Made by a program: the position numbers and the translations under genes
Notes under the pieces: generated by a model
Seen by the model: only the letters and a program-made list of their open reading frames with translations
What the model was told of the DNA's origin: nothing
Databases searched by the model: none
Shown: positions 9,065-22,738 of the stretch, one piece after another
Layout: every line of letters starts with the position of its first letter
How positions within the stretch are numbered: position 1 is the stretch's first letter
NCBI GenBank assembly: GCA_965116795.1
Contig: OZ220716.1
Location: 2,314,503 to 2,378,502, forward strand
DNA length: 64,000 bases
Direction: 5' to 3'
DNA from: Gammaproteobacteria bacterium
GTDB taxonomy: Bacteria > Pseudomonadota > Gammaproteobacteria > JAJFKG01

Positions 9065-9952
9065 TTAATTTAGTAAGTGACTCAGCGCTACTGCCAACGT
9101 CGAATAGGTGAAGGTAAACCCTGCATCGGTTAACCGTTTTGGAATCACCTGTTGCCCCTTTAATAATAACGTCTCTCCCATTTCAGCAAACAATAGCTTA
9201 ACTACCCAAGCAGGTAGGTTAAAACAGGTTAGACGTCTTAATTGTTTACCCAGTACGTGGGTAAATTCAGCATTAGTGACAGCCTGTGGAGCAGTTAGAT
9301 TAAACGCACCCGATAATTCAGGATGTTGAATGAAAAATAGAAGCGCACGGCATACATCATCAATATGTACCCACGACATCATCTGTTTACCATCACCCAA
9401 TTGTCCCCCTAAACCTAAACGAAAAGCAGGCAACATGCGTTTTAATGCACCACCTTGTTTACCCAGCACAATACCAAAGCGAGTTATCACCGTGCGCACG
9501 CTCAATGCCTGGGCTGTCAATGCAGTGGATTCCCATTGTTTACATAACCTATGAGTAAATTCATCATGACAATTGGTATCTTCATCTAATGGTGTAGCAC
9601 CTTGTGAACCATAATAACCAATTGCAGAAGCACTGATCAGTGTTGTGGGTAATGTTCGTGCACGCGAGATCCAATTAATAATCGCGTTAGTTGTATCAAT
9701 ACGACTATCAATTAACGTTTGCTTGTAAGCGTCACTCCACCGCTTATCAATTGGTGCACCGGCAAGATTAATAATCACATCAATGGATTTACCAGGATCA
9801 ATGTCTTGTAGTGTACGTACAAAATGCACTGGTTGCGGTGATGTGTTAACCGAACGTCTAGTCAGCACAATGATATGATGATTGTCTTGAATTAAATACT
9901 TAATTAAGTGACTACCAATAAAACCCGTACCGCCAGTTATTAATATGTTCAT
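9065..9952 (-). CDS. TIGR01777 family NAD-dependent epimerase/oxidoreductase (YfcH-like)
   Basis: ITGGTGFIG Rossmann motif, NLAGAPI, SASAIGYYG, GLGGQLGDGKQMMSWVHIDD. Confidence 0.92.
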   Translation of the reverse strand: MNILITGGTGFIGSHLIKYLIQDNHHIIVLTRRSVNTSPQPVHFVRTLQDIDPGKSIDVIINLAGAPIDKRWSDAYKQTLIDSRIDTTNAIINWISRARTLPTTLISASAIGYYGSQGATPLDEDTNCHDEFTHRLCKQWESTALTAQALSVRTVITRFGIVLGKQGGALKRMLPAFRLGLGGQLGDGKQMMSWVHIDDVCRALLFFIQHPELSGAFNLTAPQAVTNAEFTHVLGKQLRRLTCFNLPAWVVKLLFAEMGETLLLKGQQVIPKRLTDAGFTFTYSTLAVALSHLLN

Positions 9953-21000: not shown

Positions 21001-22738
21001 CTTCTTTTAAATAGTCATATTCATCCACACAACCATATAAGTGAAGTAAGCAACTAGAGCGTATATCACGGAAGTTAGCGTTAGGCTTTCCGTCCGTATC
21101 AAAAAATAACGTTGACGGATGGTATTCGTGCAATAGCTCAATCAACTCAGGTTGCAACGTCTCGTCTGCCGTTAACGAACGCTCATTCAATTGGCCAGTC
21201 TTATTATCCAGTAAGAAAAGGGCTAAGTTCTCTGCATAGGCTCGCATATAACGAACCACTTCTTTTTGAGATAACTTAGGACAACTCGATGAGAGGTTTT
21301 TTGCTCTGCTTCGTCCAATTTCCTTAACAAACCAGCCACCACAAGGCTCACCTTTATCATTCGGCACACCTTCAAGAAAGTAGTGAAATACAGTACTTTG
21401 GGTAAAATGCGGTGTATTGATAGCGTCCTTTTTTGGCAGCTTGTCAATGTGCGGCAGGATGTCTGCTACCATGCGTAATAAAAACGGTGTCGTCACTAAG
21501 GCTTTGAGTGATGGTAATTGCTCTAATTGCTTAAGATAGCGTTCGCACTCCACTTCCGTCTCAAAACATGCTTTAAAATATTCCTGAATCTGTTCATCGG
21601 TAAATGGTTGTAAATACTGCCGAGTATACGTAGCTAACTGACCTGAAAACTCACCACCTGCTTCAAATAATGCCGATAAATTCTTATGCAGTAACACTTC
21701 GGGACGACAAGTAACAACGACCCGAATATCGTAACCATACTCACCCCATCCTTGCAGTTGATAAATGTTCTCGCGAAAGGTAATTTCATCAAATCCATCA
21801 AGAAAAATTAGCAACGGCTTTGTCTTCATTATCTCGATTTCTTCATCAGAAAACTTATGTTTTTTTAATGTCGTCTCTAATAACGTTCCTTTATCTACTA
21901 ATTGCTTCTCGCGATGAAGTTGCTTATCGTAATTCGGTAAGTAAATGTATAACAACAATCGGGGTAATGGTGCTTGAGGCGCTTCTTTAAGTTGTTCTCG
22001 TATCCGTCTCCATACCGTCTGGCAATAGAGCAAACTAAAATACGTCTTGCCCATCCCCGCTTGACCTAACAACAGGAGTGAGCGTTGCGAACTGTCGAGA
22101 AATTCGTTAACTTTATCTGCTAAAGACAAACAGCTTTCAGTGCTGGCTCTTTCGCTATCTGCAGTTAATGGTGAAATGTAAATTTCACCTAACCTCGGGT
22201 CAAATGCACCACTGTAGTAATCAGCAAGTAACTCTATCGGTGATCGTTTACTGGTGTGTGAAGCATGACTCCCAGCACTACTGCTGATTGACACACTGTT
22301 AGCAAAAATATTTGTCTGATTTTGATAAGGGTATTCACGTTCTTGTTTTGCTAGCCTTTCAGTCGCCTCTGCAGATAGCTTTTCTCCCTGAACAGCAGTT
22401 ACCTCATTACCTTCTCCACCACATACTAAATCCTCAGCAATAATTTTTAATTTATTGCCTTTGCCTCCACATTCAAAATGTGACTGATGTTCAGAGACAC
22501 TTCTATTGGAAGAATAAGATCGATGTTCTCCATCACCCTCACTAGCCAATTCCTTTTTCCGTCTTTTTTCTTCACGTTCATCTCTCGCTTGTTCTTCTGG
22601 TCTTTTCGTTTTTCTTGAAGAAGAGGAAGAAGACGATGAGGAGGATGGCACACTACTGTTACTAGAAAGTGTTTCTGAAGTTGATTGTGTTTGCTGATTT
22701 TCTGCTTCCTTTTTATCTAAAAACATACATAACTCCAT
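18050..22738 (-). CDS. NLR-like protein: N-terminal shared motif, NACHT, pentapeptide repeats, 14 WD40 repeats
   Basis: Walker A GQAGMGKT, Walker B FLDGFDEI, VVTCRP, TPFLLRM, FKFLHKSVTEY; ADLTG/ANFSG pentapeptides; 14 counted GH..FSPDG..LAS.S.D..V..WD repeats; acidic C-terminus. Confidence 0.93.
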   Translation of the reverse strand: MELCMFLDKKEAENQQTQSTSETLSSNSSVPSSSSSSSSSSRKTKRPEEQARDEREEKRRKKELASEGDGEHRSYSSNRSVSEHQSHFECGGKGNKLKIIAEDLVCGGEGNEVTAVQGEKLSAEATERLAKQEREYPYQNQTNIFANSVSISSSAGSHASHTSKRSPIELLADYYSGAFDPRLGEIYISPLTADSERASTESCLSLADKVNEFLDSSQRSLLLLGQAGMGKTYFSLLYCQTVWRRIREQLKEAPQAPLPRLLLYIYLPNYDKQLHREKQLVDKGTLLETTLKKHKFSDEEIEIMKTKPLLIFLDGFDEITFRENIYQLQGWGEYGYDIRVVVTCRPEVLLHKNLSALFEAGGEFSGQLATYTRQYLQPFTDEQIQEYFKACFETEVECERYLKQLEQLPSLKALVTTPFLLRMVADILPHIDKLPKKDAINTPHFTQSTVFHYFLEGVPNDKGEPCGGWFVKEIGRSRAKNLSSSCPKLSQKEVVRYMRAYAENLALFLLDNKTGQLNERSLTADETLQPELIELLHEYHPSTLFFDTDGKPNANFRDIRSSCLLHLYGCVDEYDYLKEGEFKFLHKSVTEYLVAYKVMTEELSLMQAAEHGVDTSPPRRGLNRAFLVKEPEIIARLAEAARENPDFKRRLIDVLLASKHTQSLGRVASNSITILNAALVSFYGWDLRAVCIAGADLTGAICDKANFSGADLTDVMFYHASLRETNLQGAQMTGVQFGEYPYLEFEDECNAVAYSPDGKYLAVASGKVIHLFDATTRVLLRRLTSHKGEVTSVTIGGYGKLLVSGSKDKTVRVWDVERGKVCHILIGHEDEVTSVTISGDGKLLASGSKDKTVCVWDVESGKKRHRLTGHEEWVWDVTLSTDGKWLASGSRDNRIQVWDSGEHVRILTGHNYFVNSVTFSPDGKILASAGSLDETILLWDVQRGKLLRGLTEHKHGVTYVVFSPNGNQVASGSPEGDILISDIKMGKILNRFNGHKGGVTSIMFRPDSTQLVSSSNDKTVRLWSVEADKPLYRCGGHKEYVTNVMFSPDGSQLVSASWDSTILLWNTQTSEVIYKFIEHESNVESVTFSPDGSQLASVSSDGTVLLWGVQTGELIDAFIGYEDLFNYNIIFMFSPDGSQLALVSSDGTVLLWSAQTGELISEFIEHEAGVKNITFSPDGSQLALASLNTVWIYDSQTSKMLHKLTVYDQIGVMTFSRDGKQLASGSIGSGTVWIWNTQTGGLSYEFTEHDREITSLAFSWDGSRLVSGSQDETIYIWNTNTGKVHQILTGHDYGVNVVTFSHDDKQLASADGDGIVRKWHFLEGVLLEASGIHYEEAVLNTFILSWSSHPSSILALEGARIDDVYGLSPDNQQLLEQRGAKGTPLASDELPNVVEMDSISPQTYSSSSSQLTSPASFFSSSALSSPQATSSASFVQQALRRLDAQHRTSAPEKWKQFVDWYLCREPSEEAYDEENRQRKSLTRIRKSTEQGINILASAQVILTGQQLPQQATSVDTDERQQSPSHSPSSLFAPVAANQFIPKEKEEGEEEQQEERNEKAFEH

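What the first reader, a model, noticed from the sequence alone, without database searches (positions are those of the whole stretch)
9949..22738. NLR-effector-NLR cluster linked by a shared two-repeat GxxN motif: candidate new amyloid-type signalling system
Seen: a ~45-aa motif occurs in all three co-oriented genes. NACHT-WD40 N-terminus, aa 88-132 (22343-22477): FECGGKGNKLKIIAEDLVCGGEGNEVTAVQGEKLSAEATERLAKQ. C-terminus of the 693-aa protein, aa 642-686 (15238-15372): FNLGGQRNTYRGVAEDVNASGQHNQFDLVQGKKLSEQSTKEVALQ. These align ungapped with 18/45 identities. NACHT-HEAT N-terminus, aa 85-130 (14686-14823): MTFEGKGNEETVFASQGNFSGERNKRVVFETKDGLPEDLMHELAKE, keeping G5, N8, A14, G21 and N24 at the same spacing. 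Each copy has two GxxN pseudo-repeats 16 residues apart followed by a short helix-like segment, embedded in disordered sequence. Established: a motif at an NLR N-terminus repeated at the C-terminus of an adjacently encoded effector is the hallmark of amyloid signalling (fungal NWD2/HET-S, bacterial BASS/Bell pairs). Inference: two sensors with different ligand domains template a beta-arch/solenoid fold onto one effector. I do not recognise the motif as HET-s PFD, RHIM or a BASS class.
Basis: partly seen in the sequence, partly recalled or inferred. Interest (0 to 1): 0.95.

Follow-up and report, generated by a model that had tools for sequence, protein, structure and literature searches.

The report
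Split NLR with shared coupling motif
Two bacterial NLR-type sensor genes and the gene between them share a very rare 45-residue double repeat that likely lets the sensors switch on a split-off effector protein by templated stacking, a principle known from fungal and bacterial cell-death systems but seen here with a new motif and a new effector domain.

Summary
The coordinates, sequences and 18/45 identities are exact. Two copies are highly significant. The third (NACHT-HEAT, P0001) fails a leave-one-out profile search and is supported only by a rare spacing pattern and its position.

- **Fourth copy:** it lies 47 kb outside the window, at the C-terminus of a 34%-identical paralogue of the middle gene.
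- **The middle protein:** it is an ARM_5 (PF23948)/"NLR_Helical" alpha-solenoid. In Mortierellaceae fungi and in 6 of 400 sampled genomes of the same class this domain was found. In the five whose reading frames I examined far enough it sits in one frame with a NACHT domain or P-loop, and none of those frames carries the motif.
- **What this implies:** the cluster is a split NLR whose halves both carry the motif, which is the comparative signature of amyloid-signalling pairs.
- **Structure hints:** the motif is two 16-residue pseudo-repeats whose equivalent positions carry opposite charges (11 opposite, 1 same; 13 of 20,000 column permutations reach this). AlphaFold2 gives (strand-turn-strand) twice, then a helix.
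- **Against:** the motif is richer in K and E than known motifs. It lies 85 residues from the NLR start, behind a basic cluster. Elsewhere it occurs in only one protein among 1.84 billion. No fibril or binding evidence exists.

Verdict: a new variant of a known kind, and computational only.

The parts
18050..22738 (-). P0003: NLR-type sensor of 1562 aa. Order of parts: N-terminal module, P-loop NTPase (NACHT-like), pentapeptide region, WD40 propellers.
   Evidence: ORF and translation. WD40 families match. Homologues found with the NTPase region carry PF05729 in their precomputed Pfam lists.
22343..22477 (-). Motif copy in P0003 (aa 88-132): two 16-residue pseudo-repeats followed by a helix.
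   Evidence: Leave-one-out profile E 1.3e-11. AlphaFold2 gives four strands and one helix.
22553..22615 (-). Lys/Arg cluster of P0003 (aa 42-62). It follows a poly-Ser run and lies 26 residues before the motif.
   Evidence: Sequence and alignment A2.
15214..17295 (-). P0002: stand-alone ARM_5/NLR_Helical protein of 693 aa, the presumed effector.
   Evidence: PF23948 at 38.3 bits, above the cut-off of 27. It aligns with the fungal NLR N-terminal domains. The AlphaFold2 model is an all-helical solenoid.
16426..16548 (-). Hydrophobic Gly/Ala-rich helical hairpin inside the P0002 core (about aa 250-290).
   Evidence: Kyte-Doolittle 19-residue maximum of 1.96 at aa 267, with the same feature in P0004. 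Modelled as two helices at low confidence.
15466..15525 (-). Lys/Arg cluster of P0002 (aa 591-610), 31 residues before the motif.
   Evidence: Sequence and alignment A2.
15238..15372 (-). Motif copy at the C-terminus of P0002 (aa 642-686 of 693).
   Evidence: Leave-one-out profile E 4.7e-6. 18 of 45 identities with P0003.
9949..15075 (-). P0001: second NLR-type sensor of 1708 aa. It has a NACHT domain (aa 423-597) and a long helical C-terminal region, and its G+C is low (0.34-0.35).
   Evidence: PF05729 at 51.1 bits. Composition. Its NACHT region aligns with the single-frame relative P0032.
14686..14823 (-). Diverged motif copy in P0001 (aa 85-130).
   Evidence: The rare pattern G..N-x5-A-x6-G..N. 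Not significant by profile (E 6.3).
14893..14940 (-). Lys/Arg cluster of P0001 (aa 46-61), 24 residues before the motif.
   Evidence: Sequence and alignment A2.
23041..23070 (-). Promoter-like site upstream of P0003.
   Evidence: Matches 11 of 12 consensus positions. This is a consensus match only.
17673..17691 (-). Terminator-like hairpin between P0003 and P0002.
   Evidence: This is a consensus match only.

Best explanation
This is a split NLR system in which two NACHT-type sensors and a stand-alone ARM_5/NLR_Helical protein carry the same ~45-residue double-repeat module, which is predicted to couple sensor to effector by homotypic, probably amyloid-like, stacking.

Shown directly:
- The shared module and its positions.
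- The homology of the middle protein to NLR N-terminal domains.
- Single-frame, motif-less forms of this architecture in relatives.
- The 16-residue pseudo-repeat with in-register opposite charges.

Inferred mechanism:
1. Ligand binding to the WD40 region (P0003) or the helical-repeat region (P0001) would oligomerise the NACHT domains.
2. The N-terminal modules, brought together, would fold into stacked beta-arches. Each molecule would give two rungs, held by Asn ladders, a hydrophobic ladder and salt bridges.
3. This stack would template the same fold in the C-terminal module of P0002, and of its paralogue P0004.
4. Clustered or released ARM_5 domains, which contain a hydrophobic helical hairpin, would then act, possibly on a membrane.

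The purpose (defence with cell death, or something linked to the host) is not known.
For: 1. The motif copies are real and specific. Profiles retrieve P0002, P0003 and P0004 from the whole genome at E 5e-6 to 1e-12.
2. In 1.84 billion representative proteins, the only other true hit is P0009. This is a NACHT-WD40 protein from another assembly, 48% identical to P0003 in the NTPase region. It has poly-Ser, a Lys-rich cluster and the motif at aa 88-144, and the 58-residue motif segment is 43% identical to that of P0003.
3. P0002 matches PF23948 above its cut-off. It aligns over about 350 residues with the N-terminal domains of Mortierellaceae ARM_5-NACHT-WD40 proteins.
4. A published study names such a domain NLR_Helical. 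It is attached to NACHT-WD40 in Mucoromycota and NACHT-TPR/HEAT in Ascomycota, and also occurs in a fungal endosymbiont (PMC9815663, section 16 and S1 text passages).
5. The core profile finds the domain in 6 of 400 other genomes of the class. In five of them it shares a reading frame with a NACHT domain or Walker A. Pfam or full-ORF reading supports this for G002, G057, G062 and G138; for G266 and G048 the evidence is a Walker A in the same frame; a second G057 hit stays undetermined. None of these frames has the motif.
6. The same-family relative P0032 combines an ARM_5-like region, NACHT and HEAT, and its NACHT region aligns with P0001 (E 1e-14). In the window, P0002 is followed 138 nt later by P0001.
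7. Two unrelated NACHT lineages carry the module. P0001 and P0003 give no BLAST hit to each other.
8. The pseudo-repeat has invariant G2 and N5, a hydrophobic ladder at position 10, and 11 opposite against 1 same-charge in-register pairs. The polarity is swapped in P0009 and P0001. Only 13 of 20,000 column permutations reach this, or 29 of 20,000 without P0004.
9. AlphaFold2 on the five-sequence alignment gives strands 5-8, 14-18, 21-24 and 30-34 (period 16) and helix 41-53, with mean pLDDT 67.7.
10. Between P0003 and P0004 the motif has dN/dS of about 0.45.
11. G and N are enriched, P is absent and L is depleted, as reported for BASS motifs (bioRxiv 10.1101/2020.01.06.895854, sections 7 and 9 read).
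Against: - No experimental or complex-prediction evidence for binding, fibrils or seeding exists.
- K (1.5x) and E (2.25x) are enriched, I is depleted and Q is neutral. BASS motifs are reported as K-depleted and Q/V/I-enriched.
- A crude propensity scale finds only two short beta-prone stretches.
- The motif starts at aa 85-88 of the NLRs, behind a poly-Ser run and a basic cluster, not at the extreme N-terminus. It is followed by a helix.
- The conserved unit is larger than a typical amyloid motif, because it includes the basic cluster and a spacer.
- The P0001 copy fails a profile test.
- P0005, the NLR next to the second effector P0004, has no motif.
- The P0003 motif is closer to that of P0004 than to that of its neighbour P0002.
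- Only two organisms carry the motif.
- The AlphaFold2 model has middling confidence, and I could not read its strand topology.
Confidence: 0.45

Rival explanations
1. The module is a small folded homotypic or heterotypic adaptor domain (a beta-meander plus helix). It would recruit the effector to the activated NLR by ordinary protein-protein binding, as death-fold or TIR adaptors do, without amyloid templating.
For: - It has the same comparative support as the main reading: split against single-frame forms, and the same positions.
- AlphaFold2 folds a single chain into four strands and a helix at pLDDT 67.7.
- High charge and a helical tail are unusual for amyloid motifs.
Against: - The in-register opposite charges between the two pseudo-repeats point to parallel stacking of equivalent positions.
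- No solved fold resembles the model. The best Foldseek E is 3.3 and the best VIA Z is 3.0.
- 45 residues with few hydrophobic positions make a poor stand-alone globular core.
Confidence: 0.25
2. The three proteins are eukaryote-like proteins delivered into a host cell. The basic cluster would act as a nuclear localisation signal and the motif as a host-binding or delivery element. The sharing would then reflect module shuffling among effectors, not sensor-to-effector signalling.
For: - The Lys/Arg clusters look like bipartite nuclear localisation signals (my reading).
- 12 of 1831 ORFs of 150 aa or more combine poly-Ser with a Lys/Arg cluster, and most of them are very large proteins.
- The relative P0032 carries a RickCE-like peptidase domain.
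- Earlier notes of this scan describe a nucleotide-transporter-like gene in this genome. I did not test that.
Against: - The motif occurs on only these four proteins in the genome, all of them NLR halves.
- It is N-terminal in two of them and C-terminal in the other two, which fits no known secretion signal (recalled knowledge).
- The split against single-frame pattern is left unexplained.
Confidence: 0.12
3. The shared module is a by-product of gene fission, duplication or gene conversion at the border between an effector gene and an NLR gene, and has no present function.
For: - The motif of P0003 and that of P0004 are 78% identical in DNA over 111 nt. In locus 2 the motif of P0004 lies in the same order and orientation, just upstream of the NTPase gene, as the motif of P0003 does.
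- The dS of that motif pair (0.47) equals the dS of the P0003/P0005 NTPase duplicates (0.48).
- P0005 lacks the module and is cut by an IS66 element.
Against: - Invariant G, N and A positions are kept across copies whose flanks have diverged beyond recognition.
- The motif is kept in P0009 from another organism at about the same identity as the NTPase domain.
- It is kept in effector paralogues that are only 34% identical.
- dN/dS is below 1.
- The charge covariation between the repeats argues for function.
Confidence: 0.08

Closest known systems
Bacterial amyloid signalling pairs (Bell-domain protein plus NLR with BASS1-10 motifs, Dyrka et al. 2020, bioRxiv 10.1101/2020.01.06.895854; Bab/Agp with BASS11 in E. 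coli, Ibarlosa et al. 2024, bioRxiv 10.1101/2024.11.07.622273)
   Same: - A short motif lies at the effector C-terminus and in the N-terminal part of a collinear neighbouring NLR-type gene.
- G and N are conserved, P is absent and L is depleted.
- The effector domain is also known in fused, single-protein NLRs.
   Different: - The effector is a ~430-residue ARM_5/NLR_Helical solenoid, not a Bell or Babybell domain.
- The motif has two 16-residue pseudo-repeats on both partners, followed by a helix.
- It is rich in K and E, and lies behind a basic cluster 85 residues into the NLR.
- It is seen in only two organisms.
- No fibril data exist.
HET-S/NWD2 of Podospora anserina (HET-s prion-forming domain; as summarised in PMC9815663, section 6 passage read)
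   Same: - Two pseudo-repeats per effector tail.
- A NACHT-WD40 partner encoded by the neighbouring gene.
- Asn and charge ladders between equivalent repeat positions. The charge ladders of HET-s are recalled, not taken from a call.
   Different: - The repeat is 16 residues rather than 21 (recalled).
- The NLR also carries both repeats, whereas NWD2 has one (recalled).
- No sequence similarity: no Pfam family matches at E up to 10 apart from one stray hit.
NLR_Helical N-terminal domain of fungal NLRs (Wojciechowski et al. 2022, PMC9815663) = Pfam ARM_5 (PF23948); the equation of the two is my inference
   Same: - An alpha-solenoid attached to NACHT-WD40 or NACHT-HEAT/TPR.
- Shared conserved positions (an A-x-Q-A-L stretch, D-E, W-Y) with P0002 and P0004.
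- Also reported in a bacterial endosymbiont of fungi.
   Different: In the window the domain is a separate protein with a motif-bearing tail. The paper lists the fungal NLR_Helical proteins with 'noasm', meaning no amyloid motif (two supplement rows seen).

Membership tests
NLR-associated amyloid signalling motif systems (FASS/BASS) | The same short motif lies at the C-terminus of the effector and in the N-terminal region of the NLR. | tested here: met
   The copy in P0001 is weak.
NLR-associated amyloid signalling motif systems (FASS/BASS) | The effector and NLR genes are adjacent and collinear. | tested here: met
   All three genes are on the minus strand. The gaps are 754 nt (P0003 to P0002) and 138 nt (P0002 to P0001). 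These are wider than the 10 bp or less typical of BASS pairs.
NLR-associated amyloid signalling motif systems (FASS/BASS) | The effector domain also occurs fused to the NOD and repeats in a single protein. | tested here: met
   Fungal proteins P0015-P0018. Bacterial genomes G002, G057, G062 and G138; G266 and G048 by a Walker A in the same frame only.
NLR-associated amyloid signalling motif systems (FASS/BASS) | About 25 residues long, beta-prone, enriched in Q, N, G, V and I, depleted in K, P and L. | tested here: inconclusive
   G 2.6x, N 2.1x, P 0 and L 0.6x fit. K 1.5x, E 2.25x, I 0.65x and Q 1.0x do not. AlphaFold2 predicts four short strands. ArchCandy and the grammar models were not available.
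NLR-associated amyloid signalling motif systems (FASS/BASS) | [quoted passage not shown] 2020). | tested here: not met
   One genome with two effectors and two NLRs, plus one NLR (P0009) elsewhere.
NLR-associated amyloid signalling motif systems (FASS/BASS) | Forms amyloid fibrils or prions, and the NLR copy seeds the effector copy. | not testable with these tools
   Complex prediction was never available.
Known motif families (HET-s/HRAM, sigma, PP/RHIM, BASS1-11) | A match to the family profile. | tested here: inconclusive
   Pfam-A gives no family at E up to 10 for the five motif segments, except FliC-like_3rd for 1 of 5 at E 0.059. Profiles of BASS1-11 were not on hand.
Pfam ARM_5 (PF23948) / NLR_Helical | A score above the curated cut-off and an alpha-solenoid fold. 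| tested here: met
   P0002 scores 38.3 bits against a cut-off of 27. P0004 scores only 23.5 bits but is 34% identical to P0002 over 636 residues. The model has 18 helices, pLDDT 69.8 and pTM 0.66.
NACHT NTPases (PF05729) | A score above the curated cut-off. | tested here: met
   Met for P0001 at 51.1 bits against 26.7. Not shown for P0003: PF05729 is not among the 25 families displayed, and its locus is not listed at E up to 1e-3 in the own-genome scan. However, its homologues P0009-P0014 carry PF05729.

The most novel reading that the evidence does not exclude
A previously unseen two-rung, 16-residue-per-rung beta-solenoid switch, stabilised by salt-bridge and Asn ladders, lets two different NLR sensors of a unicellular gammaproteobacterium activate a shared ARM_5/NLR_Helical executioner by prion-like templating. 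It arose when a single-protein NLR split. If true, it gives the first functional handle on an effector domain shared by fungi and bacterial symbionts.
Probability: 0.3. Interest if true: 0.8.

Novelty: new variant of a known kind. Interest (0 to 1): 0.62.

Why it matters
NLR-to-effector signalling through a shared terminal motif is established for fungi, filamentous bacteria and one E. coli antiphage system. Three things would be new here.

- **A new motif type.** It is a charged double 16-residue repeat with a helix.
- **A partner for the ARM_5/NLR_Helical domain.** This domain is widespread in fungal NLRs and has no known activity.
- **A natural comparison.** Fused single-protein forms occur in related genomes and a split, motif-bearing form occurs here. 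This shows how such coupling modules appear when an NLR gene splits.

The module is short enough for direct peptide tests. Its very narrow distribution limits its general reach.

Tried and rejected
- **Word-index searches with P0002:** no hit. These are uninformative, because the representative of its cluster is a 349-aa fragment outside the length range searched.
- **ESM Atlas:** no usable hit.
- **The search for related loci with the P0003 motif in JGI metagenomes:** 509 pattern matches, none a relative.
- **Degenerate DNA pattern of the motif in 185,579 species genomes:** 72 loci, all chance, with profile scores of 16.7 bits or less despite being pre-selected on the invariant positions.
- **Motif profile in 400 other genomes of the class:** 3 weak hits (E 1e-3 to 4e-3). 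One was read and is RpoC. The other two, in frames of 314 and 202 aa, were not read.
- **Exhaustive profile search:** three further hits (P0029-P0031) are repeat proteins whose single stretches score 11.2 bits or less, so I rejected them as summed weak matches.
- **P0008 (63% identical to P0003):** it looked by eye as if it kept half a repeat, but the profile gives nothing.
- **PADLOC:** nothing for P0001, P0002 or P0004. P0003 matches only through its WD40 region.
- **PDB by sequence with the core profile:** best E 0.23.
- **Foldseek on the core model:** only generic solenoids, best E 5e-3 and TM 0.3 or less.
- **Motif model:** Foldseek best E 3.3, VIA best Z 3.0.
- **Sequencing runs:** no RNA holder listed. 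The laid contigs showed only the genome itself and pieces of its paralogue.
- **Complex prediction:** never accepted the job, so no binding test was made.
- **RTX-type calcium-binding repeat:** considered by eye and rejected. The period is 16 rather than 9, and the acidic and hydrophobic positions do not fit. This comparison rests on recall.

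
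Full report
**1. What is there**

The window lies at 2,314,503-2,378,502 of a single-contig genome of 2.45 Mb with 41% G+C. Three large minus-strand genes sit between sucAB/sdhAB and an epimerase gene. The epimerase gene overlaps the last of the three by 4 nt.

| Gene | Coordinates | Length | Content |
|---|---|---|---|
| P0003 | 18050-22738 | 1562 aa | P-loop NTPase, WD40 propellers |
| P0002 | 15214-17295 | 693 aa | Pfam ARM_5 |
| P0001 | 9949-15075 | 1708 aa | Pfam NACHT, long helical tail |

The gaps are 754 nt and 138 nt. A promoter-like site precedes P0003 and a terminator-like hairpin follows it. These are consensus matches only. P0001 has lower G+C (0.34-0.35) than its surroundings.

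**2. The observation**

The quoted peptides, positions and the 18/45 identities are exact.
- A profile of the three copies found a fourth in the genome at E 1.4e-12.
- That copy is the C-terminus of P0004 (680 aa, 47 kb upstream of the window). P0004 is a paralogue of P0002, 34% identical over 636 residues.
- Leave-one-out profiles retrieve P0002, P0003 and P0004 at E 5e-6 to 1e-12. P0001 is not retrieved (E 6.3).
- P0001 keeps the pattern G..N-x5-A-x6-G..N. This occurs five times in 840,067 six-frame residues, four of them being the copies.
- P0001 also keeps the same layout as the others: a poly-Ser run, a Lys/Arg cluster, a spacer of 24-33 residues, then the motif.

So two window copies are certain and the third is probable.

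**3. Distribution**

The motif is very rare.
- It was not found in 40 relatives, including the one other species of the genus and the one other genus of the family.
- In 400 other genomes of the class there are three weak hits at chance level. The one I read is RpoC.
- A degenerate DNA pattern run over 185,579 species genomes gave 72 chance loci.
- JGI metagenomes gave nothing.
- HMMER over 1.84 billion representative proteins returned the genome's own proteins, three repeat-protein artefacts and one true hit, P0009.
- P0009 is a 1609-aa NACHT-WD40 protein from another assembly, 48% identical to P0003 in the NTPase region. It has a poly-Ser run, a Lys-rich cluster and the motif at aa 88-144.
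- The motif segment of P0009 is 43% identical to that of P0003, so it is conserved about as well as the NTPase.
- I could not read P0009's contig, so its neighbours are unknown.

**4. What the middle protein is**

P0002 passes the ARM_5 (PF23948) cut-off. P0004 falls just under it.
- The search with P0003's NTPase region brought up Mortierellaceae proteins that combine ARM_5, NACHT and WD40 in one chain.
- P0002 and P0004 align with the N-terminal domains of these proteins over about 350 residues, with shared invariant positions.
- Wojciechowski et al. 2022 (PMC9815663; section 16 and passages of S1 text read) describe an 'NLR_Helical' solenoid at the N-terminus of NACHT-WD40 proteins (Mortierellomycetes) and NACHT-TPR/HEAT proteins (Pezizomycotina). 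They also report it in a fungal endosymbiont. Equating it with ARM_5 is my inference.
- AlphaFold2 gives an all-helical solenoid of 18 helices (pLDDT 69.8, pTM 0.66). It resembles only generic HEAT/ARM proteins.
- A Gly/Ala-rich hydrophobic helical hairpin (Kyte-Doolittle 1.96) is conserved in both paralogues.

**5. Split against fused forms**

A profile of the core finds the domain in 6 of 400 other genomes of the class.

| Genome | Reading frame | Content |
|---|---|---|
| G057 | 1147 aa | ARM_5 (E 2e-56) + NACHT |
| G062 | 1816 aa | ARM_5 + Walker A + WD40 |
| G138 | 1748 aa | core + Walker A + pentapeptide + WD40 |
| G266, G048 | 2541 and 2147 aa (only parts fetched) | core with a Walker A in the same frame |
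| G002 (same family) | 2348 aa (P0032) | RickCE-like peptidase + ARM_5-like region + NACHT + HEAT |

A second G057 hit could not be classified. The ARM_5-like region of P0032 scores 27 bits with the core profile. The NACHT region of P0032 aligns with P0001 at E 1e-14. None of these frames has the motif.

In the window, the order P0002 then P0001 is therefore the fused order cut in two, with the module on both sides of the cut. P0003 is the WD40 version without the ARM_5 part. P0001 and P0003 are not detectably similar outside the module, so the module has been placed on two different NLR lineages. This is the pattern that led to the discovery of fungal and bacterial amyloid signalling pairs.

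**6. Anatomy of the motif**

It consists of two 16-residue pseudo-repeats followed by an amphipathic helix.
- Position 2 (G) and position 5 (N) are invariant in both repeats of all five copies. Position 10 is always hydrophobic.
- Positions 3 and 6 carry opposite charges in repeat 1 and repeat 2 in four of the five copies. The polarity is reversed in P0009 and, at position 6, in P0001. P0002 has uncharged pairs there.
- Over all 16 positions there are 11 opposite-charge and 1 same-charge in-register pairs. None of the 15 shifted registers gives more than 6 opposite pairs.
- Only 13 of 20,000 column permutations reach 11. Without P0004 the figure is 29 of 20,000.
- Equivalent positions of the two repeats therefore most likely touch, as in a parallel two-rung stack.
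- AlphaFold2 predicts strands at 5-8, 14-18, 21-24 and 30-34 and a helix at 41-53 (pLDDT 67.7). I could not see the strand topology.
- No solved fold matches the model and no Pfam family matches the sequence.

**7. Points that do not fit**

- The motif is rich in K and E, and a crude scale sees little beta propensity.
- It lies behind a basic cluster that looks like a nuclear localisation signal. 12 of 1831 large ORFs in this genome combine such clusters with poly-Ser runs.
- Locus 2 is odd. P0004 is followed 42 nt later by P0005, an 84%-identical copy of P0003's NTPase. P0005 lacks the whole N-terminal module and is cut by an IS66 element.
- At DNA level, the P0003 motif matches the P0004 motif (78% over 111 nt). 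In locus 2 the motif of P0004 lies in the same order and orientation, just upstream of the NTPase gene, as the motif of P0003 does.
- The dS of the motif pair (0.47) equals that of the NTPase pair (0.48).
- So when the NLR gene duplicated, its N-terminal motif and the tail motif of P0004 were either nearly identical (concerted evolution within a pair) or the same piece of DNA.
- P0002 and P0004 end alike a few residues after the helix, which argues that the effector's stop codon is old. I cannot decide between these two histories.
- No remnant of an effector gene lies upstream of P0003.

**8. Verdict**

The functional link between the NLRs and the middle protein is well supported by comparison. 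A homotypic coupling role for the module is the best reading. An amyloid-like mechanism is plausible but untested. It is a new variant of a known kind of system, with a very narrow known distribution.

Noticed in passing
L001:5250-12252 (G000:C1:2260250-2267252), outside the window: An IS66-family element (transposase at L001:6774-8309 on the plus strand, IS66 Orf2 at 8306-8668 on the minus strand) interrupts the WD40 region of P0005. A 401-aa ORF holding the remaining WD40 blade lies beyond it.
   Followed up: partly
window 14008-14382 (P0001 aa 232-240 and 356-364) and 18352-18381 (P0003 aa 1453-1462): P0001 contains the nonapeptide WRQFLQQMK twice, each time before a Ser-rich stretch. P0003 has a similar KWKQFVDWYL near its C-terminus, and P0008 has KQFTDWYL. 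This may be a second short shared element.
   Followed up: no
L087:6197-13243 (G002:C44): The fused single-protein NLR of the sister genus (P0032) begins with a poly-Ser run and a RickCE-like CE-clan peptidase domain (PF22179, E 6e-6), ahead of its ARM_5-like region.
   Followed up: partly
P0008 (Logan contig), C-terminal ~250 residues: The closest foreign relative of P0003 (63% identical) lacks the motif. It carries an extra C-terminal region after the WD40 part that, by eye, looks like a cysteine-peptidase motif. I did not scan it.
   Followed up: no
genome-wide, for example G000:C1:1192981-1197009, 1400664-1406954, 1485101-1489804 and 1736253-1748309: 12 of 1831 ORFs of 150 aa or more combine a poly-Ser run with a dense Lys/Arg cluster. 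Most of them are very large proteins.
   Followed up: no
L098 (G057:C8:76000-92000): The ARM_5-NACHT gene of G057 sits in a row of three further large ORFs on the same strand, each with a Walker A motif 61-79 residues from the start of its open frame. One of them has WD40 and TPR repeats. This looks like an NLR cluster with short N-termini that may hold other motifs.
   Followed up: no
window 1864-2724 (-): A 286-aa ORF matches the aminoglycoside/hydroxyurea resistance kinase family (APH_6_hur, E 2e-33).
   Followed up: no
ENA contig of 8811 bp (proteins P0025-P0028): A second assembly holds P0002 and P0001 at 98-99.7% identity, but each is split into two ORFs. These could be assembly errors or real frameshifts; I did not resolve which.
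   Followed up: partly
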